DNA from: Candidatus Multivorans sp.
Lineage (GTDB): Bacteria; Acidobacteriota; Thermoanaerobaculia; Multivoradales; Multivoraceae
Assembly (NCBI GenBank): GCA_965224025.1
Contig: OZ245033.1
Span: forward strand, 3,840,001 to 3,904,000
DNA length: 64,000 nucleotides
Direction of reading: 5' to 3'
Position 1 is the stretch's first letter, and each line of letters starts with the position of its first letter. This document shows, one piece after another, positions 8,938 through 63,467 of this stretch. The position numbers and the translations under genes are program-made. The notes beneath the pieces were generated by a model. The model searched no databases. It was not told the DNA's origin and saw only the letters and a list, made by a program, of their open reading frames with translations.

Positions 8938-10863
8938 ATGAAGAAGCTCACGATGGTCGCGGCGATGGCGGCGTTCTCCGCCTTCCTGCTTGTCGCCTGC
9001 GCTCCCGGCGACGACGCTGCCGACGGCGACGCGGCGACGGCGGGCGTCGCGGAAGGCCCGAACCCGACCCGGAACGCCTACTTCGGCGACCTCCACGTCC
9101 ACACGCGCTACTCCTTCGACGCCTTCATCTTCGGCACCACGACGGACCCGAACGACGCCTACGAGTTCGCCAAGGGCGGGACGATCAAGCATCCCGCCGG
9201 CTTCGACATGAAGCTCGACCGGCCTCTCGACTTCCAGGGCGTGACCGACCACGGCATGTACCTCGGCATGCTCCCGGCGATGACCGAGGAGGGTTCGCCT
9301 GCCTATGACCACCCGATCGCCGCCGACATGCGCGTGGCCGAAGAGGCCGACGAGCGTCGCGGCATCTTCGTCGGCATGCGCCCCTACCTGGCCGCCCGGG
9401 CGGGAGAGGACGAGCATCTCAACATGGACGTCGTCCGGGGCGCCTGGTCCAAGATCATCGAGGCGGCCGAGGCGCACAACGATCCGGGGAACTTCACGAC
9501 CTTCATCGCCTACGAGTACACGTCGTCCGGCTATGAGCGGGACAACCTGCACCGCAACGTGGTCTTCCGCGGTTCCGAGCATCCGGACGCACCGTTCAGT
9601 CGGACCGACTCTCAGAACCCCGAGGACCTCTGGGCCGCGATGGACGGGTGGCGGGAGCAGGGGATCGAAGCGCTCGCGATTCCGCACAACTCGAACGGCT
9701 CCGGCGGCCGCATGTTCGAGATGGAGAAGTTCTACGGCGACCCGCTCGACGACGAGTACGTCGACCTCCGGATGCGCAACGAACCGATCGTGGAGATGAC
9801 TCAGGTCAAGGGCACCTCGGACACCCACCCGGCGCTGTCGCCCAACGACGAGTGGGCCGACTTCGAGATCATGCCGTACAAGATCGCGACCACGATCATC
9901 AGCGACCCGCCCGGTAGCTACGTCCGCGACGCGCTGATCCGGGGTCTCCGGCTCGCCGACGGCGGCCTCGCGAACCCGTACAAGTTCGGCCTCATCGGCG
10001 CCAGCGACAACCACGTCTCGGGCGGAGCCTTCAACGAGGACAACTACTGGTCCAAGGTCGGGATCCTCGATGCCACCGCCGAGCTTCGGGGTTCGGTGCC
10101 CGGCACCGGCGCCAACCAGACCACGGGCGATCCGGCCCAACAGTCCGATTCCTCGATCCGCACCGACGACGGCTCGGGCCGCACCTTCCGCGACACCTAC
10201 TACTACACCTGGGGCGCCTCCGGCCTGGCCGGCGTCTGGGCCGAGGAGAACACCCGCGAGTCGATCTTCGACGCCATGCGGCGCAAGGAGACCTTCGCCA
10301 CCTCCGGACCGCGCATGAAGATCCGGTTCTTCGCCGGCGACTTCGAAGACGGCGACCTGGACGACGCCGAGTTCCTGACCAAGGCCTACGCCGAGGGCGT
10401 GCCCATGGGCGGCGACCTGCTGGCCGCCGATGACGCCTCGGCGCCGACCTTCGCCGTCATGGCGATGCGCGATTCGATGGGAGCGCCGCTGCAGCGGCTG
10501 CAGGTGATCAAGGGATCGTCGAAGGACGGCGAAGGGTCCGAGGTCGTCTACGACGTGGCCTGCTCCGACGGCGCCGCCGTCGACCCGGCCACCAACCGCT
10601 GCCCCGACAACGGCGCAATGGTCGATCTCGCCACTTGCGAAATCAGCGCCGACTCCGGCGCCGACGAACTGAAGGCGGTCTGGACCGACCCGGACTTCGA
10701 CGCCTCGGAGCGCGCCTTCTACTACGTCCGGGCGCTCGAGAACCCCACCTGCCGCTGGTCGACCTGGGACGCCATGCGCGCCGGCGTCGAACCACGCCAG
10801 GACATCTCGCCGACCCTCCAGGAACGCGCCTGGTCATCGCCCATCTGGTACAACGCGGACTAG
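8938..10863 (+). CDS. DUF3604 lipoprotein
   Basis: Lipobox LVAC; YFGDLHVHT, VTDH, NLHRNV, IPHNSN, QERAWSSPIWY. Confidence 0.85.
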   Translation: MKKLTMVAAMAAFSAFLLVACAPGDDAADGDAATAGVAEGPNPTRNAYFGDLHVHTRYSFDAFIFGTTTDPNDAYEFAKGGTIKHPAGFDMKLDRPLDFQGVTDHGMYLGMLPAMTEEGSPAYDHPIAADMRVAEEADERRGIFVGMRPYLAARAGEDEHLNMDVVRGAWSKIIEAAEAHNDPGNFTTFIAYEYTSSGYERDNLHRNVVFRGSEHPDAPFSRTDSQNPEDLWAAMDGWREQGIEALAIPHNSNGSGGRMFEMEKFYGDPLDDEYVDLRMRNEPIVEMTQVKGTSDTHPALSPNDEWADFEIMPYKIATTIISDPPGSYVRDALIRGLRLADGGLANPYKFGLIGASDNHVSGGAFNEDNYWSKVGILDATAELRGSVPGTGANQTTGDPAQQSDSSIRTDDGSGRTFRDTYYYTWGASGLAGVWAEENTRESIFDAMRRKETFATSGPRMKIRFFAGDFEDGDLDDAEFLTKAYAEGVPMGGDLLAADDASAPTFAVMAMRDSMGAPLQRLQVIKGSSKDGEGSEVVYDVACSDGAAVDPATNRCPDNGAMVDLATCEISADSGADELKAVWTDPDFDASERAFYYVRALENPTCRWSTWDAMRAGVEPRQDISPTLQERAWSSPIWYNAD

Positions 10864-10881
10864 CAACTTGCGCGGCAGCTA

Positions 10882-10913
10882 CTGGGTGCTCCGGCGTCCC
10901 CGCCGGCATCCGG
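10882..10913. repeat. REP-like palindrome (CTGGG-N3-hairpin-ATCC family)
   Basis: CTGGGTGCTCCGGCGTCCCCGCCGGCATCCGG; same frame as the copies at 15045, 17233, 24587 and 63368. Confidence 0.7.
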
Positions 10914-10932
10914 CTTGAGGGCAACGGGAACC

Positions 10933-11565
10933 ATGGACTTCGACGTTGCAATTCATCTCGGCACCGTCGAGCGTTCCGTGTCGTCGCCGGAACACGACAG
11001 CCAACCCGCTCGCGCAGTCACCCTGTCTCGCAGCTTCCCCACGACGGTCGAGGATCTCTGGGACGCCGTCACCAACGAGAAGCGCCTCCCACTCTGGTTT
11101 CTCCCGGTCGCCGGCGAACTCCAACTCGGCGGCCGCTATCAACTCGAGGGCAACGCCGGCGGCCTGATCACGGCGTGCGAGCCACCCGCACGTCTCGCGA
11201 TCACATGGGAGTTCGGCGACGACACGAGTTGGGTGGAAGTACGAATCTCAGACGATGGGCCGCGCCGCGCGCGACTCACCCTCACGCACACCGCGGAACT
11301 CTCGCCACATTGGGACCACTACGGACCCGGCGCAACCGGCGTCGGCTGGGAGTTGGGCCTCATGGGCCTTGCGCTACACATCACGCAGCCAGCCGAATCC
11401 CAACTGGACGAAGCCGCCTTCGCCGCTTCTCCCGACGGCAACGCGTTCATCAAAGCCAGCAGCGACGGCTGGGGACAGGCCGCAGTTGCCTCTGGAACGG
11501 AGCCCGACGCCGCCCACGCCGCCGCACGGCGCACCACCGCCTTCTACACCGGCGAATCCGCCTAG
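10933..11565 (+). CDS. SRPBCC/AHSA1 family protein
   Basis: DLWDAVT..RLPLWFLPV.GEL..GGRYQLEGNAGG, GVGWEL. Confidence 0.85.
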   Translation: MDFDVAIHLGTVERSVSSPEHDSQPARAVTLSRSFPTTVEDLWDAVTNEKRLPLWFLPVAGELQLGGRYQLEGNAGGLITACEPPARLAITWEFGDDTSWVEVRISDDGPRRARLTLTHTAELSPHWDHYGPGATGVGWELGLMGLALHITQPAESQLDEAAFAASPDGNAFIKASSDGWGQAAVASGTEPDAAHAAARRTTAFYTGESA

Positions 11566-13352
11566 TTGTCGCTGCGCAACACGGACACGAACGCTTCCTG
11601 GGGGATGTCGACGGAGCCGACGCGTTTCATGCGCTTCTTGCCCTCGCGCTGCTTCTCGAGCAGTTTGCGCTTGCGGGTGATGTCGCCGCCGTAGCACTTG
11701 GCGGTGACGTCCTTGCGGAAGGCGCCGATCGTGGTGCGGGCGATGATCTGACCGCCGATCGCCCCCTGGATGGCGATCTTGAACTGCTGGCGCGGGATCG
11801 TGTCCTTGAGGCGCTCGCAGTAGCGCAACGCCCGCCGCCGCGCCTTTTCCCGGTGCACGAGCTGCGACAGGGCATCGACCCGTTCGCCGTTGACGAGGAT
11901 GTCGACCTTGACCAGGTCCGTCACCCGTGACTCGATGAGTTCGTAGTCGAACGAGCCGTAGCCCTGGGTTACCGTCTTCAGGCGGTCGTAGAAGTCGAAG
12001 AGCACTTCGGCAAGCGGCAGTTCGCAGGTCAGTTCGACGCGTCCCACGGCCAGGTAGTGGATGTTCGTCTTGCCGCCGCGACGCTCCAGGCAGAGTTCCA
12101 TGACCGCCCCGAGGTAGCGCTCCGGCAGCATGATCGAGGCCTTGATGTACGGCTCGGCGACGGTCGCGATCTCGGAAGGGTCGGGATACGCCGACGGATT
12201 GTCGATCCGTCGCTTCGCGCCGTCCGACATCTCCACCAGGTACTGCACGGACGGCGCCGACAGCACCAGAGACAGCCCGTACTCGCGCTCCAGGCGCTCC
12301 TGCACCACGTCCAGGTGCAGCAGGCCCAGAAAGCCGCAGCGGAAGCCGAAGCCGAGGGCCGAGGACGAGTCCTTGTCGTAGGTCAGCGCTGCGTCGTTCA
12401 GAGCCAGCTTCTCGAGCGCGTGAGTCAGGTCCTCGTAGTTGTTGCTCGACACCGGGTAGATCGATGAGAAGACCACCGGCTTCGCCTCGCGATACCCGGG
12501 GATCGGTTCGACCGCGCCGTTCGCCGCGGTCGTGATCGTGTCGCCGATGTCGATTTCCGAGATGTTCCGGATCCCGGCGATCACGTAGCCCACCGCCCCG
12601 GCCTCCAGTTCCTCGGTCCGGCGCCGTTTGAGCAGCAGGGTCCCCACCTCCTCGACGTCGTGCTCGCTGCCGGTGTGCATCAGGCGCACCTTCTGCTTCG
12701 GCCGCAGAAGGCCGTCGCGCACCCGCACCAGCAGCACGACGCCGCGGTACGGGTCGTACTGGGCGTCGAACACCAGCGCCTTGAGCGGGGCTTCCAGCGT
12801 GCCCGACGGCGCCGGCAACCGGGCCGTGATCGCGTCCAAGACGTCCTCGACACCCTGGCCGGTCTTGGCCGAGCACTGCACCGCCTCGAACGGATCGAGC
12901 CCCAGGTCACTCTCGATCTCTTCCAGCACCCGGTCGACATCGGCAGAAGGAAGATCGATCTTGTTGATCACGGGAATGATCGCGAGGTCGTACTCGAGCG
13001 CCAGATAGAGGTTGGCTACTGTCTGCGCCTCCACTCCCTGGGAGGCGTCGATCAGCAGCAGCGCTCCTTCGCAGGACATGAGCGACCGCCGCACCTCGTG
13101 CGAGAAGTCGACATGGCCCGGCGTGTCGATCAGGTTCAAACGGCAGAGCCGGCCCTCGCCGTCGTGATGGCGCAGGGTGACCGTGTTGCTCTTGATCGTG
13201 ATCCCCCGCTCCCGTTCGATGTCCATCGAGTCCAGGATCTGGTCCCGAAACTGGCGATCCTCCACCGCGCCGCAGTGCTGGATCAGCCGGTCGGCAAGCG
13301 TCGACTTGCCGTGGTCGACGTGAGCGATGATGCAGAAGTTACGGACCGACAT
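11562..13352 (-). CDS. lepA: translation elongation factor 4
   Basis: RNFCIIAHVDHGKSTLADR, DTPGHVDF, KCYGGDITRKRKLLEKQ; 596 aa from ATG 13352. Confidence 0.97.
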   Translation of the reverse strand: MSVRNFCIIAHVDHGKSTLADRLIQHCGAVEDRQFRDQILDSMDIERERGITIKSNTVTLRHHDGEGRLCRLNLIDTPGHVDFSHEVRRSLMSCEGALLLIDASQGVEAQTVANLYLALEYDLAIIPVINKIDLPSADVDRVLEEIESDLGLDPFEAVQCSAKTGQGVEDVLDAITARLPAPSGTLEAPLKALVFDAQYDPYRGVVLLVRVRDGLLRPKQKVRLMHTGSEHDVEEVGTLLLKRRRTEELEAGAVGYVIAGIRNISEIDIGDTITTAANGAVEPIPGYREAKPVVFSSIYPVSSNNYEDLTHALEKLALNDAALTYDKDSSSALGFGFRCGFLGLLHLDVVQERLEREYGLSLVLSAPSVQYLVEMSDGAKRRIDNPSAYPDPSEIATVAEPYIKASIMLPERYLGAVMELCLERRGGKTNIHYLAVGRVELTCELPLAEVLFDFYDRLKTVTQGYGSFDYELIESRVTDLVKVDILVNGERVDALSQLVHREKARRRALRYCERLKDTIPRQQFKIAIQGAIGGQIIARTTIGAFRKDVTAKCYGGDITRKRKLLEKQREGKKRMKRVGSVDIPQEAFVSVLRSDN

Positions 13353-13480
13353 GGGCGCCCCGCATCCTATTGCGCCCGGCCCCGGGCCGGCATCTGCCAC
13401 CGCGTGCGCCTGCATCCGCCGCTGGGACTCTCCACCCTTTAGCAAATGTGTTTTGGGGAGGCTGCTGCGGGTCAGGGAGG

Positions 13481-14733
13481 TCATGCGACCTGGGCATGGC
13501 ATCGCTTGTTGGGGTCGAAGAGAGTCGGCCTCGGAGCATGGCGCAGGCGACGCCGAGGAGTCGGTCGACGAGTTGTCTGATGGCGCGTCCGTGCGTCTTT
13601 CCCTGGGCTTTCATGGCGTCGTACTTGGCGCGGCTGATCGGGTCGTGCTGGATGGCGACTCGTCCCCAGTGATAGACGGCGTCGCTGAGGTGTTCGTTGG
13701 CGGCGAGTCGTCGCATGACGATGAGCTTCTTGCCGGACTTGACGGTCACCGGCGCCACTCCGCAGAGGCAACGCAGTGCCTCGTGGTCTCTGCGGCCCAG
13801 GCTTTGATCGGCCTCGGAGAGCAGGGTGGCGAGGCCGACCTTGCCGAGTCCGGGCAGCGACCTGAGGATGGCGGCGTCGCTCGGCTTAGGGGAGTCGTCG
13901 TCGTTTTCCCGTTGGGCCGGGGCCTCGAGTGCGCGGGTCATCCGCTCCAGCCGCTTGTCGGCGTCGGCGAGTTGGCGGCAGACGGTGTCGAGCACCGGCC
14001 GGAGGAGTCCTATGTGTTCGACGGCGGCCTTAACGGTGTCCGGGGAAACGGCGATCGGCTCGGCCCGCAGTTGATCGCGCAGTTGGGCGGAGGTCAGGCG
14101 CCGGATGCGGTGTTCCTTGAGCAGTTTGGCGAGCGTGGCTTCGCGCAGCCGTCGAGCCTTGCCGGGGGTCGGCGCCAGTCGCCACAAGGCCAGCGCGAAG
14201 GGCGCCGACACCTCGTTCTTGACCACGGCGAGAAACTGCGGGTAGTAGCGCCAGAGCTGGTCGCGGACCTGGTTCTCCAGGCGGTTCTTCTGGCCGACCA
14301 ACTGCTTGCGGCCGCGGGACACCTCGCGCAGCATCACGATGGCGGCATCGGATGGTTGCACGCGGTTCAGGCACTCGGGGTCGGTGCGAAGCGCGGCGGC
14401 GAGCGCCCGTGCATCGCGGCGGTCATCCTTGGCGCCGGCGACGGAGAAGCGGTCCCTGAAGCGGTCGAGCTGCTTGGGGTTGATCGAATGCACGGCGAAG
14501 CCCCGCTCCAGGAGAGTCTCGACCACCGGTCCGTGCGGCACCTCGATGGCGACGCCGATCTCGTCCGGAGACGTCGGTCGGGTATGTCCAAGGAGCCAGT
14601 CGGCCATGGCGGCAAGTCCCTTGCCGCTGTGGTCGAACGCCCGCTCCCCCCTCACCTTGCCGTCCCGATCCAGCACACACACGTGGTGGGTCTCGGACCC
14701 CCAGTCCACGCCGGCGAACCACGTCCTGGTCAT
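13481..14733 (-). CDS. IS110 DEDD recombinase with an apparent 1-nt deletion near the C-terminus (~13525)
   Basis: AGVDWG, AIEVP, KDDRRDA (DEDD), SLPGLG, APVTVKSG catalytic-Ser motif; the natural end TLFDPNKRCHAQVA* is in another frame; AAGGAGG RBS. Confidence 0.9.
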
Positions 14734-14768
14734 CTCGTCCTCCTTCTCCCTTGCGGTAGTGTTGCCTG

Positions 14769-14923
14769 GTCGGCATGCCGCGTTGCCTGCCCGTACCTGT
14801 ACTGGTGCTCTAAGGCACTGACTCTCCACTGGGCGTCCAACGCGGCGAAGCAGCCAGGGCACGGGTCCCAGCCAGGTGCTCGAAGCACAGTGCGCCGGTG
14901 GTTGCTCCTGGCTGCTTGCCGAC
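14769..14923 (-). ncRNA. IS110 bridge RNA core (target-binding and donor-binding loops)
   Basis: Outer stem GTCGGC/GCCGAC; two stem-loops, each with an internal GTGC..GCAC hairpin flanked by guides matching the target and donor sites; the true 5' end probably lies further upstream toward ~15028. Confidence 0.85.
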
Positions 14924-15044
14924 TTTCCTTCAGTGACTCCGGCAGGCCGGAGACGCAACCGACCGGCGGTCTCGGCTGCGGAAGCTGCCGGTCCATTCCA
15001 CCTCTCTCAACGACACGCCAGAATGCATCCCGGAAAGGTACAGG

Positions 15045-15081
15045 TACGCCGGCCTCCGGCCGGCATCCGCCGAAGGCGGAA
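15045..15081. repeat. right part of the REP-like palindrome split by IS110, plus a TCCGCCGAAGGCGGA hairpin
   Basis: TACGCCGGCCTCCGGCCGGCATCCGCCGAAGGCGGA. Confidence 0.7.
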
Positions 15082-15126
15082 TCCGGAACAACCACCTCGA
15101 CCTGGGAGTTGCTAACTTCCCACACC

Positions 15127-16038
15127 ATGTCCACCCCCGCCGCAGCCGCACAGACCACCATCCGCATCGTCGGCGCGCCGCTCGACCTCGGCCAGGCGCG
15201 CCGCGGCGTCGACCTGGGACCGACCGCGCTCCGCTACGCGGGTCTCAAGTCCGCCCTGAGGCGACTCGGCTACCGGGTCGAGGACCGGGGCAACATCGAG
15301 ACCGTCGAGCGGGACACACTGCCCGAGGAACCCGGCCTGGGTTTCCTGCAACCGGTCGTCGACGCCTGCGAGCACATCTACGAGGCCAGCCGGCAGGCGG
15401 TGGCCGAGGGCGCCGTGCCGCTGGTGCTCGGCGGCGACCACTCGATCGCCGTCGGCACCGTCGGCGGCGTCTCGCACGAGCACCGCACAGGCGTCCTCTG
15501 GATCGACGCCCACGGCGACTTCAACACCCCGGACACCTCTCCGACCGGCAACCTCCACGGCATGCCCCTCGCCGCCCTGTGCGGACACGGCGCATCGGAA
15601 CTGGTCGATGCCGGTCGCCCCGGCGCCAAGCTCCGGGCCGAGGACGTCGTCCTCTTCGGCGTCCGCGACCTCGATCCCGGCGAGCAGGCCCTGATCCAGC
15701 AGGCCGGCATCACCACCTACACGATGCGCCAGATCGACGAGCGAGGGCTGGCGCCGGTCGCCGCCGAGGCTCTCGAAGGCCTGGGCCACGTGGACCGGAT
15801 CCACGTCAGCCTGGACATGGACTCGATCGATCCCCATGAGGCCCCAGGCGTCGGCACGCAGGTGCCCGGCGGCCTGAGCTACCGCGAAGGCCACCTGCTG
15901 ATGGAACTGATCGCCGAGCACGGGAGCATCGGCTCCGTCGACGTGGTCGAAGTGAACCCGATCCTCGACACCCGCAACCAGACCGCGAAGCTCGCGCTCG
16001 GTCTGTTGAGCTCCCTCTTCGGCCGCAGCATCCTGTAA
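15127..16038 (+). CDS. rocF: arginase
   Basis: GGDHSIAVG, WIDAHGDFNTP, SPTGNLHGMP, HVSLDMDSIDP, EVNP. Confidence 0.92.
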   Translation: MSTPAAAAQTTIRIVGAPLDLGQARRGVDLGPTALRYAGLKSALRRLGYRVEDRGNIETVERDTLPEEPGLGFLQPVVDACEHIYEASRQAVAEGAVPLVLGGDHSIAVGTVGGVSHEHRTGVLWIDAHGDFNTPDTSPTGNLHGMPLAALCGHGASELVDAGRPGAKLRAEDVVLFGVRDLDPGEQALIQQAGITTYTMRQIDERGLAPVAAEALEGLGHVDRIHVSLDMDSIDPHEAPGVGTQVPGGLSYREGHLLMELIAEHGSIGSVDVVEVNPILDTRNQTAKLALGLLSSLFGRSIL

Positions 16039-16188
16039 CGGGTACTTCTTCTACGGTGGGTAGGAGCTGACGGCTTGGCCGCGGGTTCTGTGACTCCAAC
16101 CGGCTGCGCCGCACCATCGTCGCCAAACGCGCGAATTCTGGACGTCCGACGAGAACAGGCGCTACCTCAACGACATCGGCGACTTGCC

Positions 16189-16662
16189 TTAAAGAAGATC
16201 GTGGGGCTCTCGCAACCACTCGTTCTCGACTTCCAGGTCTCGAAAGAGCGAATGCAGGGACTCTCTGATCCTGAACAGATGGGCTATCCGATCCCGAACG
16301 TCGCGGCCGTGAAGCTCTTCGCGTCCCGTCAGCATCGCGGCCGCGTGGTCTGCGTCACCGGCACCGAAGCCGAGGAGACCAGCCAGATCTTCCCGACTCA
16401 GGCGCCAGAAGTCAGCCAGCTTCAAGGCGAACTGGATTGGACCGGCAGGCCGCGCAGGTAGTCCTGGAAGCGTGCCTTGACTCCGAGAGCTTCGCGTCTC
16501 GGGTGGCGATTCCACTGAGGATCGACTCCTGATCCGTGGATCGCGAAAGAGCCCCGCGTACTTTCCCGTCCGAGCCGAAGGCGGCCTAACGGCCCGGCCG
16601 CCGCGCACGAGAGCCCGCAAAGTCCGGCGCGCTGGTTTCGGTCGCTCCTTCTTCACGCTCAT
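16189..16662 (-). pseudogene. truncated Xre/MbcA/ParS-type (DUF2384-like) antitoxin
   Basis: FW.LSREDLAGLLG...DRIAHLFRI..SLHSLF...EWLREPH; the expected motif continues past the TAA (GKSPMSL); start uncertain. Confidence 0.6.
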
Positions 16663-16741
16663 GACCAAGCGCGATGGTATCCGACCCATCCGCTCGCAGC
16701 GAGGCAGAATACGGGCTTCACGTCACCACCAGGAGACCCCA

Positions 16742-17224
16742 ATGACCGACGACCAACGCCAGTACTGGCTGATGAAGAGCGAGCCGGGCGAGTACTCGAT
16801 CGACGACCTCGAACGGGACGGCACGACCTACTGGGACGGCGTGCGCAACTATCAGGCCCGCAACCTGATGCGCGACCGGATGCTGATCGGCGACGGAGTT
16901 CTCTACTACCACTCGAACGCGAAGCCGACGGCCGTGGTCGGCCTGGCTCGCGTGTGCAGCGAGTCCTACCCGGACCCGACCCAGTTCGATCCGGACGATG
17001 CTCACTACGACCCGAAGTCGGACCCCGAGAATCCCCGCTGGCACCTGGTCGACATCGAGTTCGAACGCAAGTTCGACGAGCCCGTGACCCTGGCGGAGCT
17101 ACGCCAGCGCCCCGATCTCGAAGGGATGGCCCTGCTCCGCCGGGGACAGCGGTTATCGGTGCAGCCGGTCACCGCCCGCGAGTGGCGGATCGTGTGCCAG
17201 ATAGGGGGAGTCGCCTTGGAGTAG
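16742..17224 (+). CDS. EVE domain protein
   Basis: YWLMKSEP, WDGVRNYQARN, YYHSN, RLSVQPV. Confidence 0.93.
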   Translation: MTDDQRQYWLMKSEPGEYSIDDLERDGTTYWDGVRNYQARNLMRDRMLIGDGVLYYHSNAKPTAVVGLARVCSESYPDPTQFDPDDAHYDPKSDPENPRWHLVDIEFERKFDEPVTLAELRQRPDLEGMALLRRGQRLSVQPVTAREWRIVCQIGGVALE

Positions 17225-17232
17225 CGCCAGCG

Positions 17233-17264
17233 CCGGATGCGGGCGAGACGCCCGCGTTCCCAGG
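17233..17264. repeat. REP-like palindrome (uninterrupted copy)
   Basis: CCGGATGCGGGCGAGACGCCCGCGTTCCCAGG between convergent genes. Confidence 0.75.
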
Positions 17265-17312
17265 GGGCGGCTCAGTGGCCGGACGGCGTCTAAGTGGACC
17301 GCATGCGGTCAC

Positions 17313-18524
17313 TCAGTTCACGCTAGCGACACGGACGCTGCCGGAGCCCGTGTCGAGGATCACGTTCGCATCGCCGTCGCCGGCAACGAAGCGCATCTCG
17401 CCTCGCGACTTGTGCAGCGTCTTCGTGATCGGCACATCGACATCGATGCCGCCGCTGCCAACGTCGATGTCGAACCGGGCCGACAGGTCGTCCGGAACCA
17501 GCATGACGATGCCGCCAGAGCCGGTGTCGATCTCGAATCTGCCATCGCCCATCCGCTCCAGAGCCAGGTGCACTCTGCCGCTGCCCGTATCGATCACCGC
17601 GGCGTCGGCGCCCACGGATTCGACCCGCACGCTGCCGCTCCCCGTGTCGATCGTGAGCCTCTTGGCTTCCACGCCGTCCACGGTCACTCCGCCGCTGCCG
17701 GTGTCTATATCGATCGCCTCGGCCGACACCTCGGTGATCGCCACCGAGCCGCTGCCGGTGTCGATAGAGAGCGCGTCGCCTTCGAAACGGTCGAGTCGGG
17801 CTTTGCCGCTGCCGGTGTCCATAAGCAACCGGCCGCGAACGTCCTGCACCGCCAGCCCGCCGCTGCCGACCCGGATCCGCACATCGCCATCAAGGCCGGC
17901 AGCTTCCGCCATCCCGGCTCTGGTCTTCAGTTCCAGATCAGCCGCGACGTCGGACACGTCGATGTCGCCCGCTCCCAACTCGACCTCGAGCGACCGGCCC
18001 TCCGGCACGCGAATCGTCACATCGGCCCAGGCTTCCAGGCCGCTGCCGGTCCTCACGACCCGGATGCGGCGGCCGGATACGGAGCGCAGGATCTCGCCCA
18101 GCAGACTGTGGGAGCCGCTCTGCCGGCGCGACCACAGGTTCGACGAACGACGGCTGAACTCGGGATAGACGTACCGCCTCTCCTCGTCGACCGGGAACTC
18201 GACGGCCAGCCGAGCCCGCGAGCCACGCGTGTCCTGGTCGAGTCTGATGTTCTCGCGGGTGCCGTCCTCGCCGCGGACCGACACCTCCACCTCGAACTCA
18301 TCGCCGGCCGCCTGCCTGACTTCCACCTTGCCAATCAGACTGGAAACCGAGAGAGAGTCGGCGTCGAAACGGTAACTCTCGTCGAACTCACCCAACGCCG
18401 GGACGGCCAGGAATACGATTGCGCAAAGCGCGCCCATGCCCGGGCGCCCTGACGGTCTTCGCTGCCCGCGGGCCGCGGCGCGACCCGGGGAGTCCGTTGC
18501 GGTTCTCGAAGATCGGTTGGTCAT
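17313..18524 (-). CDS. DUF4097 beta-strand repeat (adhesin-like) protein
   Basis: Repeated IDTGSG.V motifs about every 20 aa; AAGGAG RBS. Confidence 0.85.
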
Positions 18525-18690
18525 CGGTCTCTCCTTGTTTCCGGGACTGAGAGTGGAGGCGCCCGACGCGCCCTTCACCGCTACACAACGCAAACGAGCG
18601 GGCAGGGTTTCACCGAACGCCCTCCGGCCGCTGTGCCGACTGCTATCGTCCCTTTCGTCGATCCGCGGCCCAGGAGGACGGTCCCAGACC

Positions 18691-19260
18691 ATGGCCGGCT
18701 ACAACATGAACCAGGTCCGAACCGGGCTGAAGGTACTCGAGAGCGGTGAGCCGAACGTGATCATCGCCTGCGACTTCATCAAGCCCGGCAAGGGGCAGGC
18801 GTTCACTCGCGTCAAGATGCGCAACCTGCTGAGCGGACGAGTCAACGAGAAGACGCTCAAGCCCGGCGATCTACTCGCGGGCGCCGATGTCGTCGACACG
18901 TCGATGCAGTACCTCTACAGCGACGGCGAACACTGGTTCTTCATGGACTCCGACACCTACGACCAGGTCGAAGCCGACGCACAGGCTCTCGCGGGCGACG
19001 AGCAGTGGATCAAGGAAGAGGACGTGTGCGACGTGACGCTCTGGAACGGCCATCCGATCCAGGTCAAGCCGCCGAACTTCGTGGTCCGGGAAATCGTCGA
19101 GACGGACCCCGGCCTCAAGGGCGACACGTCGAGCGGCGGCAGCAAGCCCGCCAGGCTGGAAACCGGGGCCACAGTCAAGGTGCCCCTGTTCATACAGAAC
19201 GGCGAGTCGATCCGGGTGGACACCCGCACCGGGGAGTACGTTTCCCGCGCCAAGAGCTAG
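18691..19260 (+). CDS. efp: elongation factor P
   Basis: [34 protein letters not shown]. Confidence 0.96.
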
Positions 19261-19279
19261 CGACCAGGGAGGCCGCCAC

Positions 19280-20266
19280 GTGACCGGCAACGACGCCGAC
19301 TGGCGCCCCACCGCTACCCCTGAAGCCCTGCGCCGACGCGCGGCGATGCTGGCCGAACTGCGCGCCTTCTTCGCCGAGCGGGGCGTACTCGAGGTCGAGA
19401 CGCCGCTCCTGAGCGCCGAGACCACACTCGACCTGCATCTGGAGAGCCTGAGCTCCGAGATCGAAGCGCCGGGTTTCCCGAAGCGCCGGATGTACCTCCA
19501 GACTTCACCCGAACTGGCGATGAAGCGGCTGCTCGCCGCGGGTTCCGATTCGATCTACCAGGTCTGCAAGGCGTTTCGCGACGGCGAGCGCGGCCGATGG
19601 CACAACCCGGAGTTCACGATCCTTGAGTGGTACCGCGTCGGTTGGGACCACCACCGGCTGACGCGAGAGGTCGTGGCTCTGATCGAGACGCTTCTCGCCG
19701 GTTCGCGGCGCCTCGAAGCAGCGTTCTACGCGAGCTACGCCGACCTGACGAAACAACACGCCGGAGTCGATCCGCACGACACGCCGACCCGAGCCCTGCG
19801 CCAGGCCGTGGAACGGTCGCCCGCACACCGGAACACCGACGGTCTCGACCGCGACGACCTGCTCTCCCGTGTGTTCGTCGACCAGGTCGAGCCCCACTTC
19901 GCACCCAACCGGGTGACCGTGGTCTTCGACTACCCGGCCTCCCAGGCCGCGATGGCCCGGCTTGGCGCCAGCGATCCGAGGACGGCAAAGCGCTTCGAGG
20001 CCTACGTGGGGCGTATCGAGCTCGCCAACGGCTACGGCGAATTGAGCGACCCGGCCGAACAACGACAGCGCCTCGACCGCGACCTGACCAGGCGCCGGAA
20101 ACTCGGCCGGCCACTGCCGCCGATGCCATCCCGGTTCCTTGCCGCCCTCGAGGTCGGTCTGCCCTGTTGCGCCGGGGTCGCCCTGGGCTTCGACCGCCTG
20201 CTCGGACTCGACCTGGGCGCCCAGAGGATCGACGAGCTCATCGCCTTCCCGGTCGAGCGCGCCTGA
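19280..20266 (+). CDS. epmA: EF-P lysine aminoacylase
   Basis: LQTSPE..MKRLLAAG, HNPEFT.LEWY, ELANGY.EL, GVALGFDRL; no anticodon-binding domain; next to efp. Confidence 0.92.
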   Translation: MTGNDADWRPTATPEALRRRAAMLAELRAFFAERGVLEVETPLLSAETTLDLHLESLSSEIEAPGFPKRRMYLQTSPELAMKRLLAAGSDSIYQVCKAFRDGERGRWHNPEFTILEWYRVGWDHHRLTREVVALIETLLAGSRRLEAAFYASYADLTKQHAGVDPHDTPTRALRQAVERSPAHRNTDGLDRDDLLSRVFVDQVEPHFAPNRVTVVFDYPASQAAMARLGASDPRTAKRFEAYVGRIELANGYGELSDPAEQRQRLDRDLTRRRKLGRPLPPMPSRFLAALEVGLPCCAGVALGFDRLLGLDLGAQRIDELIAFPVERA

Positions 20267-24566: not shown

Positions 24567-24683
24567 TGCAGGGAACTGGCCGCCGACTGGGTGCGCGGGT
24601 CTTCTGACCCGCTGCCGCCGGAGGCGGCCAGAAACACGTGCCGGCCGCCCGGCCGGCTCCGCTCTGGCGGCCAGTTCCATGCA
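24567..24683. repeat. REP-containing cassette bracketed by a 13-bp inverted repeat
   Basis: GGAACTGGCCGCC (24572-84)/GGCGGCCAGTTCC (24666-78) enclosing REP CTGGGTGCGCGGGTCTTCTGACCCGC (24587-24612) and a GCCGCCGGAGGCGGC hairpin. Confidence 0.7.
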
Positions 24684-63367: not shown

Positions 63368-63467
63368 CCGGATGCGGGCGGGACGCCCGCGTGCCATCCG
63401 TTCGCCCGGTGACGGGCGCACGGAGTGGTTCGCGGGTGGCGCGGATCGCGCCACCCGGGTTCCCAGG
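63368..63467. repeat. REP-like palindrome interrupted by the 68-nt double-hairpin unit (copy 2, 63393-63460)
   Basis: CCGGATGCGGGCGGGACGCCCGCGT + 68 nt + TCCCAGG, compared with the uninterrupted copy at 17233. Confidence 0.8.

What the first reader, a model, noticed from the sequence alone, without database searches (positions are those of the whole stretch)
13421..15081. The bridge RNA appears programmed against the host's own REP-like repeat family
Seen: deleting 13427-15044 restores GCTGGGTACGCCGGCCTCCGGCCGGCATCC. It shares the CTGGG-N3-hairpin frame with intergenic palindromes at 10882, 17233, 24587 and 63368, whose stems differ but stay paired. The guide-predicted ideal target GCTGGGTGCGCCGG differs by 1 nt from the occupied site and by 2 nt from the empty copies at 10881 and 24586. 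Established: some IS110 members target REPs. Inference: RNA-guided homing into a multi-copy safe-harbour repeat, with tolerated mismatches and unoccupied candidate targets nearby.
Basis: partly seen in the sequence, partly recalled or inferred. Interest (0 to 1): 0.7.

Follow-up and report, generated by a model that had tools for sequence, protein, structure and literature searches.

The report
Bridge-RNA insertion sequence homing into REPs
An RNA-guided IS110-type jumping gene sits in a short palindromic host repeat that its guide RNA matches, as do all its other copies in this genome, which is a clear new example of behaviour already known from E. coli and Pseudomonas.

Summary
Window 13427-15044 (minus strand) is an IS110-family element. 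Its left end encodes a two-loop bridge RNA.

All 15 copies in the genome, plus one left-end remnant, sit in C[T/C]GGG|T[A/G]CGCCGGC. There are 44 unoccupied exact CTGGGTRCGCCGG sites.

Related elements in other genomes change guide and flank together: 25 guide programmes from 81 loci.

The repeat is a true host REP family:
- It is found in 39 of 41 genomes of the genus.
- 24 of the 28 genomes without this transposase still hold 16 or more copies.
- In relatives it flanks a RAYT-like gene. This genome has no such gene.

New details:
- The "mismatches" are wobble pairs, or fit a second guide allele (C or U) carried by 5 of 14 copies.
- The 55 sites of the 24586 type are never occupied.
- The window copy is damaged, with a 92-nt left-end deletion and a C-terminal frameshift.
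- No exact empty allele was found.

REP homing by bridge RNA is already established for IS621 and ISPpu10, so this is a new member of a known kind, in Acidobacteriota.

The parts
13421..13426 (+). Head of the REP (GCTGGG). In element orientation this is the CC core plus the right target CAGC, paired by the RTG.
   Evidence: 15 of 15 RE-side junctions read C[T/C]GGG
13427..15044 (-). IS110-family insertion sequence, 1618 bp here and 1710 bp in the typical copy. The GG/CC core dinucleotide is present at both junctions, so the ends could equally be placed at 13425-15042.
   Evidence: 14 full copies at 97-99% identity. DEDD_Tnp_IS110, Transposase_20 and NCBIfam 'IS110 family RNA-guided transposase' (172.9 bits, cut-off 140).
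13339..14733 (-). Transposase reading frame of this copy. A 1-nt deletion near 13525/13526 shifts the last ~16 codons, so the frame runs out through the right end to TAA at 13339-13341. Ten of 14 copies instead encode 417 aa and stop inside the element.
   Evidence: table 4: contigs of other copies carry an extra G behind 13525.
13427..13436 (-). Right-end terminus (left donor, GGTGGAGAGT in element orientation), matched by the LDG
   Evidence: In L034-L037 both the end and the guide read GGGAAG instead of GGAGAG.
14770..14923 (-). Bridge RNA: a closing helix, a target-binding stem-loop and a donor-binding stem-loop
   Evidence: MFE -78.5 kcal/mol, z -2.94, 0 of 200 shuffles as stable; 21 sequences, 32 consensus pairs, 11 with compensatory changes.
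14890..14898 (-). Left target guide CCGGCGCAC (C allele). Five of 14 copies carry CCGGCGUAC.
14867..14872 (-). Right target guide GCUGGG
   Evidence: ACCGGG guides go with CCCGGT flanks in 5 of 5 loci (L038-L042).
14820..14829 (-). Left donor guide GUGGAGAGUC
14796..14802 (-). Right donor guide GUACAGG, complementary to the left-end start CCTGTAC (15038-15044)
14994..14995 (-). Junction of a 92-nt deletion in the left end, upstream of the bridge RNA. It removes two conserved hairpins with U tracts.
15045..15052 (+). Left target (TACGCCGG, which is CCGGCGTA in element orientation). It has one C.A mismatch to this copy's own guide and matches the U allele perfectly.
15048..15079 (+). REP hairpin GCCGGCC-TCC-GGCCGGC (15048-15064) and a second small hairpin CCGCC-GAA-GGCGG (15067-15079)
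   Evidence: 30 of 44 unoccupied exact sites have the first hairpin
10882..10914 (+). Unoccupied REP, CTGGGTGCtCCGGCGTCCCCGCCGGC, intergenic
24587..24612 (+). Unoccupied REP of the GCGGGT-stem sub-family (CTGGGTGCGCgGGTCTTCTGACCCGC), intergenic
   Evidence: This mismatch class is occupied 0 times among 55 sites.
17233..17266 (-). Unoccupied REP of the AAC/GCGGGC sub-family

Best explanation
Window 13427-15044 is a copy of an IS110-group insertion sequence that chooses its insertion site with a bridge RNA encoded in its own left end.

The RNA is about 155 nt and has two stem-loops, each with a large internal loop. The donor loop carries GUGGAGAGUC and GUACAGG. These match the joined ends of the excised element, ...GGTGGAGAGT-CC-TGTACC... 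The target loop carries CCGGCG[C/U]AC and GCUGGG. These match the two strands of CCGGCG[C/T]A-CC-CAG[C/T]. On the window's plus strand that is [G/A]CTGGG-T[G/A]CGCCGG, the head and first hairpin arm of a REP family found across the genus.

Recombination at the CC core inserts the element 3 nt before the REP hairpin, always in one orientation.

Shown here by computation:
- the element family;
- the RNA fold with compensatory changes;
- guide-to-end and guide-to-flank complementarity;
- co-variation of guides with flanks across relatives;
- exclusive REP occupancy;
- independence of the REPs from the element.

Inferred from IS621 and ISPpu10:
- a circular intermediate;
- a junction promoter, read here as TTGCTA-17 nt-TACCTT across the joined ends;
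- strand exchange at the core.

Also inferred: two guide alleles coexist and act in trans. The U allele pairs with both TAC and TGC sites. The C allele pairs only with TGC sites. On this reading the window copy (C allele in a TAC site) was placed by a U-allele RNA, or changed its guide after insertion.

The window copy itself is probably impaired, because it has a left-end deletion and a frameshifted C terminus.
For: Family: Pfam DEDD_Tnp_IS110 (114.7 bits) and Transposase_20 (48.6 bits). NCBIfam IS110 family RNA-guided transposase, 172.9 bits against a cut-off of 140.

Occupancy: 15 of 15 RE junctions and 16 of 16 LE junctions lie in the REP.

Guides: LTG, RTG, LDG and RDG were read directly from the sequence. 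The pairing rules are taken from passages of PMC11208160.

Co-variation: 81 of 94 loci were parsed, giving 25 guide programmes. The mean LTG-flank common run is 7.56, against 3.52 for mismatched pairings (95th percentile 6). The mean RTG run is 5.91, against 2.90. Examples:
- L033: guide CCGCGCAC with flank ACCCGCGCA.
- L039 and L042: UCCGCGCAC with GTCCGCGCA.
- L038-L042: ACCGGG with CCCGGT, 5 of 5.
- L046 and others: GAAAAGG with CCTTTTC.

Fold: 11 of 32 consensus pairs carry compensatory changes in 21 sequences.

Specificity: exact 13-mer sites are occupied 9 of 49 times. The one-mismatch class at position 11 is occupied 0 of 55 times (Fisher p 0.00075).

Host repeat: the 13-mer is present in 39 of 41 genus genomes. 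24 of the 28 genomes without the transposase hold 16 or more copies.

Alleles:
- The U allele is in 5 of 14 copies.
- GCTGGGTACGCCGG is occupied in 4 of 5 instances, against 9 of 49 for TGC sites (p 0.0097).
- A genome with only C-allele copies has 0 of 17 insertions in TAC sites although 6 such sites are free. Genomes with U alleles have 6 of 19 (p 0.020).
- The guide site is the most homoplastic of 63 informative sites.

Wobble tolerance at the equivalent positions was measured for ISPpu10 (passages of 10.64898/2026.03.19.712850).
Against: Nothing here is experimental. No RNA data, circle junction or new insertion was seen.

The window copy's own guide mismatches its own site (C.A).

The allele argument rests on small numbers from related genomes, which are not independent. 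By TAC-site occupancy alone the difference is not significant (0 of 6 against 6 of 15, p 0.12).

The copies are mosaic, so the homoplasy count may reflect recombination rather than repeated mutation.

Among 65%-identity relatives, 4 of 6 loci have flanks that mismatch the LTG at distal positions. Distal pairing is therefore not strictly required.

A role of the REP hairpin could not be separated from sequence. About 12 of 16 occupied sites have a perfect hairpin, against 30 of 44 free sites.

The consensus promoter scan found no site in the integrated copy.
Confidence: 0.9

Rival explanations
1. The recombinase, or a host factor, recognises the REP stem-loop as a structure. On this view the RNA complementarity is secondary or coincidental.
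For: The target includes a GC-rich hairpin on the left-target side. For ISPpu10 that geometry was reported to add specificity (abstract and passages of 10.64898/2026.03.19.712850). Most occupied sites have the hairpin.
Against: Guides and flanks change together in 25 programmes, including targets unrelated to this REP. REP sub-families with equally good hairpins but one guide mismatch (GCGGGC, GCGGGT and GCGGAC stems, about 200 copies) are never occupied. Some occupied sites lack a perfect hairpin: c34, c600 and the split copy.
Confidence: 0.05
2. The conserved flanks belong to the element. The 'REPs' are then its footprints or miniature derivatives and not an independent host repeat.
For: BLAST identity between copies runs 20-30 nt beyond the proposed ends.
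Against: Flank identity decays after the REP, and the REP stems and loops differ between copies. There are 44 free exact sites in this genome. 24 of the 28 genus genomes with no transposase relative hold 16-325 copies, five of them single-contig assemblies. In relatives the repeats flank a RAYT-like gene in inverted orientation.
Confidence: 0.02
3. The window copy is an immobile relic, and its one-base disagreement with its own guide arose after insertion by mutation or gene conversion of the guide. On this view no mismatch was ever tolerated and no RNA acted in trans.
For: The copy has a 92-nt left-end deletion and a frameshifted C terminus. Its closest relatives c600 and c745 carry the U allele. 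The guide site flips between copies that differ at only 4 or 8 sites.
Against: c827 shows the same C-guide and TAC-site combination. c298 and c2856 show the converse. Guide and flank are therefore uncoupled in 4 of 14 copies, which is simplest if RNAs act in trans. Trans action was shown for IS621 and ISPpu10.
Confidence: 0.3

Closest known systems
IS621 of Escherichia coli (IS110 group; Durrant et al. 2024, PMC11208160; passages read)
   Same: - It has the same two protein domains.
- The bridge RNA lies in the left end, with a target loop and a donor loop.
- The LTG pairs the bottom strand on the left and the RTG pairs the top strand on the right.
- A 2-nt core is included in each pairing.
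- The natural target is a REP.
   Different: - The core here is CC, not CT.
- The left target is 8 nt.
- The left end is about 400 nt and carries two extra conserved hairpins.
- The two stem-loops are enclosed by a closing helix.
- The host is an acidobacterium.
- No Rfam family matched.
ISPpu10 and ISPpu9 of Pseudomonas putida (10.64898/2026.03.19.712850, abstract and passages; PMC12288879, passages)
   Same: - All copies sit at one position of a REP.
- A GC-rich hairpin lies on the left-target side.
- Wobble is tolerated: a C-to-U change at the LTG base second from the core, and a G.T pair in the RTG.
- The RNA acts in trans.
- REPs are also present in relatives that lack the element.
   Different: Here the C/U difference is a natural polymorphism among copies in one genome, and it matches a TGC/TAC polymorphism of the REP. 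This genome has no RAYT. The hairpin's effect was not testable.
REP/RAYT systems (Tobes and Pareja 2006, seen only as a reference; REP description from passages of PMC12288879)
   Same: A short, imperfect palindrome that is mostly intergenic, occurs in tens to hundreds of copies and often in tandem or inverted pairs. In relatives, a single-copy Y1 transposase gene is flanked by inverted REPs.
   Different: This genome lacks the Y1 gene. The relatives' protein scores just under NCBIfam's cut-off for REP-associated tyrosine transposase (76.3 against 80).

Membership tests
IS110 family, IS110 group (bridge-RNA elements) | Recombinase with an N-terminal DEDD RuvC-like domain and a C-terminal Tnp domain | tested here: met
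   PF01548 at 114.7 bits and PF02371 at 48.6 bits. NF033542 at 172.9 bits, over the cut-off of 140. Catalytic residues were not inspected one by one.
IS110 family, IS110 group (bridge-RNA elements) | No terminal inverted repeats. A short core, present once in the target, is found at both junctions. | tested here: met
   The ends are CCTGTACC... and ...GGAGAGT. CC lies at both junctions in 15 of 15 copies.
IS110 family, IS110 group (bridge-RNA elements) | A non-coding RNA upstream of the recombinase gene with two internal loops | tested here: met
   Fold. Consensus structure with 11 of 32 pairs compensatory in 21 sequences. Expression was not tested.
IS110 family, IS110 group (bridge-RNA elements) | The donor loop is complementary to the joined element ends | tested here: met
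   GUGGAGAGUC pairs with the right end and GUACAGG with the left end. The GGGAAG variant co-varies in L034-L037.
IS110 family, IS110 group (bridge-RNA elements) | The target loop is complementary to the flanks, and the two co-vary across relatives | tested here: met
   25 programmes from 81 of 94 loci. Mean runs of 7.56 and 5.91, against 3.52 and 2.90 for mismatched pairings.
IS110 family, IS110 group (bridge-RNA elements) | Excision as a circle, and RNA-dependent recombination | not testable with these tools
   Only contigs of public runs were available, and no circle junction was seen.
REP (repetitive extragenic palindromic) elements with RAYT | A short palindromic unit in many copies, more than chance gives | tested here: met
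   40 exact 13-mers against a mean of 1.55 for permuted motifs. 298 CTGGG-N3-hairpins against 62-145 for controls. 0-325 copies per genus genome, against 0-3 for the reversed pattern.
REP (repetitive extragenic palindromic) elements with RAYT | Extragenic location | tested here: inconclusive
The four window copies checked against the reading frames (10882, 13421, 17233, 24587) are intergenic. This was not measured across the genome. About 8 of the 44 exact sites have no repeat context and may lie in genes.
REP (repetitive extragenic palindromic) elements with RAYT | A cognate Y1 (RAYT) transposase gene flanked by inverted REPs | tested here: not met
   In this genome there is no PF01797 match. 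A relative's protein gave only a weak hit over a REP cluster (E 0.0012). In the genus, 25 of 40 genomes have a match, and it is flanked by inverted REPs of this family in 2 of 2 loci read.

The most novel reading that the evidence does not exclude
The copies of this element in one genome keep two bridge-RNA alleles that differ at a single guide base, C or U, second from the core. That base faces the one position where the host REP family is itself dimorphic (TGC or TAC). The guide base has switched more often than any other informative site among the copies. The perfectly matched TAC sub-family is nearly saturated, with 4 of 5 sites occupied.

This would be natural, ongoing retuning of a bridge RNA to widen its target set. 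It would be taking place in a genome whose REPs can no longer be renewed, because the RAYT gene is gone.
Probability: 0.3. Interest if true: 0.55.

Novelty: new member of a known kind. Interest (0 to 1): 0.35.

Why it matters
This extends bridge-RNA homing into REPs from Proteobacteria to Acidobacteriota (relatives named Candidatus Multivorans, Thermoanaerobaculia and Vicinamibacterales).

It also supplies a natural set of about 25 guide programmes with matched targets. The set includes CC-core elements and a natural C/U guide polymorphism that parallels the wobble tolerance measured for ISPpu10. Such natural variation can guide the design rules of bridge recombinases.

It does not open a new question.

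Tried and rejected
- Rfam scan of window 9000-20000 at E up to 1: no bridge-RNA family, only a chance AsrC match.
- Consensus promoter scan of 13300-15200: 0 promoter-like sites.
- nhmmer profile of the repeat: too insensitive for a 50-nt unit, with 39 hits at E below 0.001. It was replaced by pattern counts.
- Public runs: no RNA holder listed.
- Contigs of four runs laid on 12900-15600. They break at the element's ends. One contig of X5, from a relative (25 other letters in 481), joins 13381 to 15121 with 32 other letters between. That is an allele without the element and without the REPs, not an exact empty site.
- Hairpin dependence of occupancy: no difference could be shown.
- Search of this genome with a relative's RAYT-like protein: one weak hit (E 0.0012) over a REP cluster, read as translated repeat.
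- Ends of the second IS110-type element: not resolved.
- A first, looser extraction of RNA coordinates was superseded (then 41).

Full report
**What is there.** Between lepA (minus strand, start at 13352) and an arginase gene (plus strand, start at 15127) lies a 1618-bp element at 13427-15044. On its minus strand is a gene with the DEDD_Tnp_IS110 and Transposase_20 domains. NCBIfam names it an IS110 family RNA-guided transposase, at 172.9 bits against a cut-off of 140. The window is G000:C1:3840001-3904000 of a 5.14-Mb genome with 67.6% G+C.

It is correct base for base. One nuance is that the hairpin at 15048-15064 is intact beside the element. Removing the element rejoins the GCTGGG head to the hairpin; no split palindrome is mended.
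- The copies at 10882 and 24587 (plus strand) and at 17233 (minus strand) share the CTGGG-N3-hairpin frame.
- The copy at 63368 has a degenerate head.

**Copies in the genome.** BLAST finds 14 full copies at 97-99% identity. There is also one copy split by a roughly 15-kb insertion, one left-end remnant and one internal fragment.
- On the window's plus strand, every right-end junction reads C[T/C]GGG (15 of 15).
- Every left-end junction reads T[A/G]CGCCGGC (16 of 16). Ten full copies have TGC and four have TAC.
- GG (CC in element orientation) stands at both junctions, so the core is CC.

**The bridge RNA.** In element orientation the left end holds a closing helix around two stem-loops with large internal loops.
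- The minimum free energy is -78.5 kcal/mol, z is -2.94, and 0 of 200 shuffles are as stable.
- In 21 diverse relatives the consensus has 32 pairs, 11 of them with compensatory changes.
- Applying those rules, the LTG is CCGGCGCAC (14890-14898), the RTG is GCUGGG (14867-14872), the LDG is GUGGAGAGUC (14820-14829) and the RDG is GUACAGG (14796-14802).
- The donor guides match the element's own ends.

**Co-variation in relatives.** The search for related loci returned 80 loci from records titled Candidatus Multivorans (70-91% identity), Thermoanaerobaculia (65%) and Vicinamibacterales and others (55-60%). Elements at 65-91% identity sit in the same REP position. Where the guide differs, the flank differs with it:
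- L033: CCGCGCAC with ACCCGCGCA.
- L039 and L042: UCCGCGCAC with GTCCGCGCA.
- L038-L042: RTG ACCGGG with CCCGGT, 5 of 5.
- L034-L037: LDG GUGGGAAGUC with the end GGTGGGAAGT.
- The distant group has quite different programmes, for example GAAAAGG with CCTTTTC and CAAAUGG with CCATTTG.

Over 81 of 94 loci, 25 programmes were found. Thirteen loci were dropped: in 5 the loop was not located and in 8 the left-end start was mislocated. The mean LTG-flank run is 7.56, against 3.52 for mismatched pairings. The mean RTG run is 5.91, against 2.90. Three right-end flanks in that table look mislocated (L034, L070, L086), and they lower the observed mean.

**The repeat family.**
- The 13-mer CTGGGTGCGCCGG occurs 40 times unoccupied, against a mean of 1.55 for permuted motifs. 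The TAC variant occurs 4 times.
- The wider family, CTGGG-N3-hairpin, has 298 members. N3 is AAC in 114 and TGC in 103. The stems are GCGGGC in 157, GCCGGC in 32, GCGGAC in 31 and GCGGGT in 10.
- Only the GCCGGC sub-family is occupied: exact sites 9 of 49, and the position-11 G class 0 of 55 (p 0.00075).
- The 13-mer is present in 39 of 41 genus genomes at 0-325 copies, against 0-3 for the reversed pattern.
- 28 of the 41 have no transposase relative at E 1e-50, and 24 of those hold 16 or more copies. Some of these assemblies are fragmented and could have lost repeats. Five of the 24 are single contigs.
- A Y1_Tnp match is absent from this genome but present in 25 of 40 relatives.
- In both loci that I read, the Y1 gene is flanked by inverted REPs of this family. 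One of the proteins scores 76.3 bits on NCBIfam's REP-associated tyrosine transposase model, whose cut-off is 80.
- Genomes with the Y1 gene hold more 13-mers, a median of 76 against 27.5. These genomes are related and so not independent.

**Mismatches.**
- The outer RTG base G faces T in the ACTGGG sites, a G.T wobble.
- The two CCGGG sites give a U.G wobble.
- The TAC sites mismatch the C allele (C.A) but match the U allele, which 5 of 14 copies carry: c600, c745, c536, c298 and c2856.
- Guide and flank are uncoupled in 4 copies: the window copy and c827 one way, c298 and c2856 the other. This fits RNA acting in trans, as shown for IS621 and ISPpu10.
- The 14-mer GCTGGGTACGCCGG is occupied in 4 of 5 instances, against 9 of 49 for TGC sites (p 0.0097).
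- A relative with only C-allele copies has 0 of 17 insertions in TAC sites although 6 such sites are free. Genomes with the U allele have 6 of 19 (p 0.020). By site occupancy the difference is not significant (p 0.12).
- The guide site needs 4 changes on the tree of copies, the most of 63 informative sites. The copies are mosaic, so recombination is an alternative to repeated mutation.
- Passages of the ISPpu10 preprint report that the LTG base second from the core tolerates only C-to-U, and that a G.T wobble in the RTG works. That is the same geometry as seen here.

**State of the window copy.**
- It lacks 92 nt of the left end, upstream of the RNA (junction at 14994/14995). The missing piece holds two hairpins that are conserved down to 65% protein identity.
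- A 1-nt deletion near 13525/13526 replaces the last ~16 codons, and the frame then runs through the right end to 13339.
- Ten of 14 copies encode 417 aa. Three share the frameshift. One has an early stop.
- Both guide loops are intact.

**Empty allele.** All 15 same-genus genomes searched have lepA next to arginase without the element. The intergenic region holds zero to two REPs. L009 is the nearest to the reconstructed site. One public-run contig from a relative joins the two genes with neither the element nor the REPs. An exact empty allele was not found.

**Comparison with known systems.** REP targeting by IS110-family elements through bridge RNAs is established for IS621 and ISPpu9/ISPpu10. 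This element works the same way and meets every family feature that could be tested. It is a new member in a different phylum, with a CC core and a longer left end. The natural C/U guide dimorphism, the loss of RAYT and the second IS110-type element next to the same composite repeat are the only points beyond the known picture. I searched the paper library for 'bridge RNA', 'IS110' and 'REP' and for 'bridge RNA', 'wobble' and 'IS110'. None of the listed titles or abstract starts mentions such a within-genome guide dimorphism.

Noticed in passing
G000:C1:4322373-4322573 (outside the window): An orphan fragment of about 200 nt that covers almost the whole bridge RNA (C-allele LTG, RTG context UAGCUGGG, RDG with one change). 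It has no transposase and no element ends, and it starts directly after a gene's stop codon.
   Followed up: partly
G000:C1:111512-113180 and 13 further copies (outside the window): A second IS110-family element of about 1.67 kb, in 14 copies, starting CTAGGAGTGTCC. Its right junction abuts another repeat module, GTTCCATGCAAG-NN-TGCGCGGCAGAAAC. In several copies that module directly precedes the CTGGG REP. One copy lies about 50 nt from the split copy of the element studied here. Its left flanks are not conserved, and its true ends and guides were not resolved.
   Followed up: partly
G000:C1:5044242-5045405 and C1:13083-13648 (outside the window): A fifteenth copy of the element is split by about 15 kb of other DNA. 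The ends of that DNA carry repeated GTGCGAGAAA-like motifs, which suggests a larger transposon inserted into it across the contig's start.
   Followed up: no
window 14994-14995; full copies such as G000:C1:743456-745196: The two-hairpin module of the left end (GGGAAACCGG..CCGGTTTTCC and GGCGGGAAACGG..CCGTTTTCCGC) has been lost by three deletions with different end points: in the window copy, in c600 and in the remnant at C1:5037673-5037803. It is conserved in relatives down to 65% identity and absent from the 55-60% group. Its function is unknown; it may be a terminator or insulator.
   Followed up: partly
window 13375-13420: A degenerate extra REP-like hairpin (GCCCGGCCCCGGGCCGGC) and a partial unit (ACCGCGTGCGCC) lie between lepA and the occupied REP. 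The locus therefore held a small REP cluster. Relatives carry zero to two units at the same place.
   Followed up: partly
L045-L049, L056, L058, L062, L091, L092 (Vicinamibacterales records): Distant relatives of the element, in several genomes, are preceded by the same stretch of about 70 nt (GTCGACGAGACGACC...GCTCAGGGGGTCC). Targeting of a host repeat seems common in this clade. Some loci show tandem copies separated by one target unit.
   Followed up: no
G000 and 40 genus genomes: The copy number of the 13-mer varies from 0 to 325 among species of one genus. It is higher where a Y1 transposase gene is present (median 76 against 27.5).
   Followed up: partly
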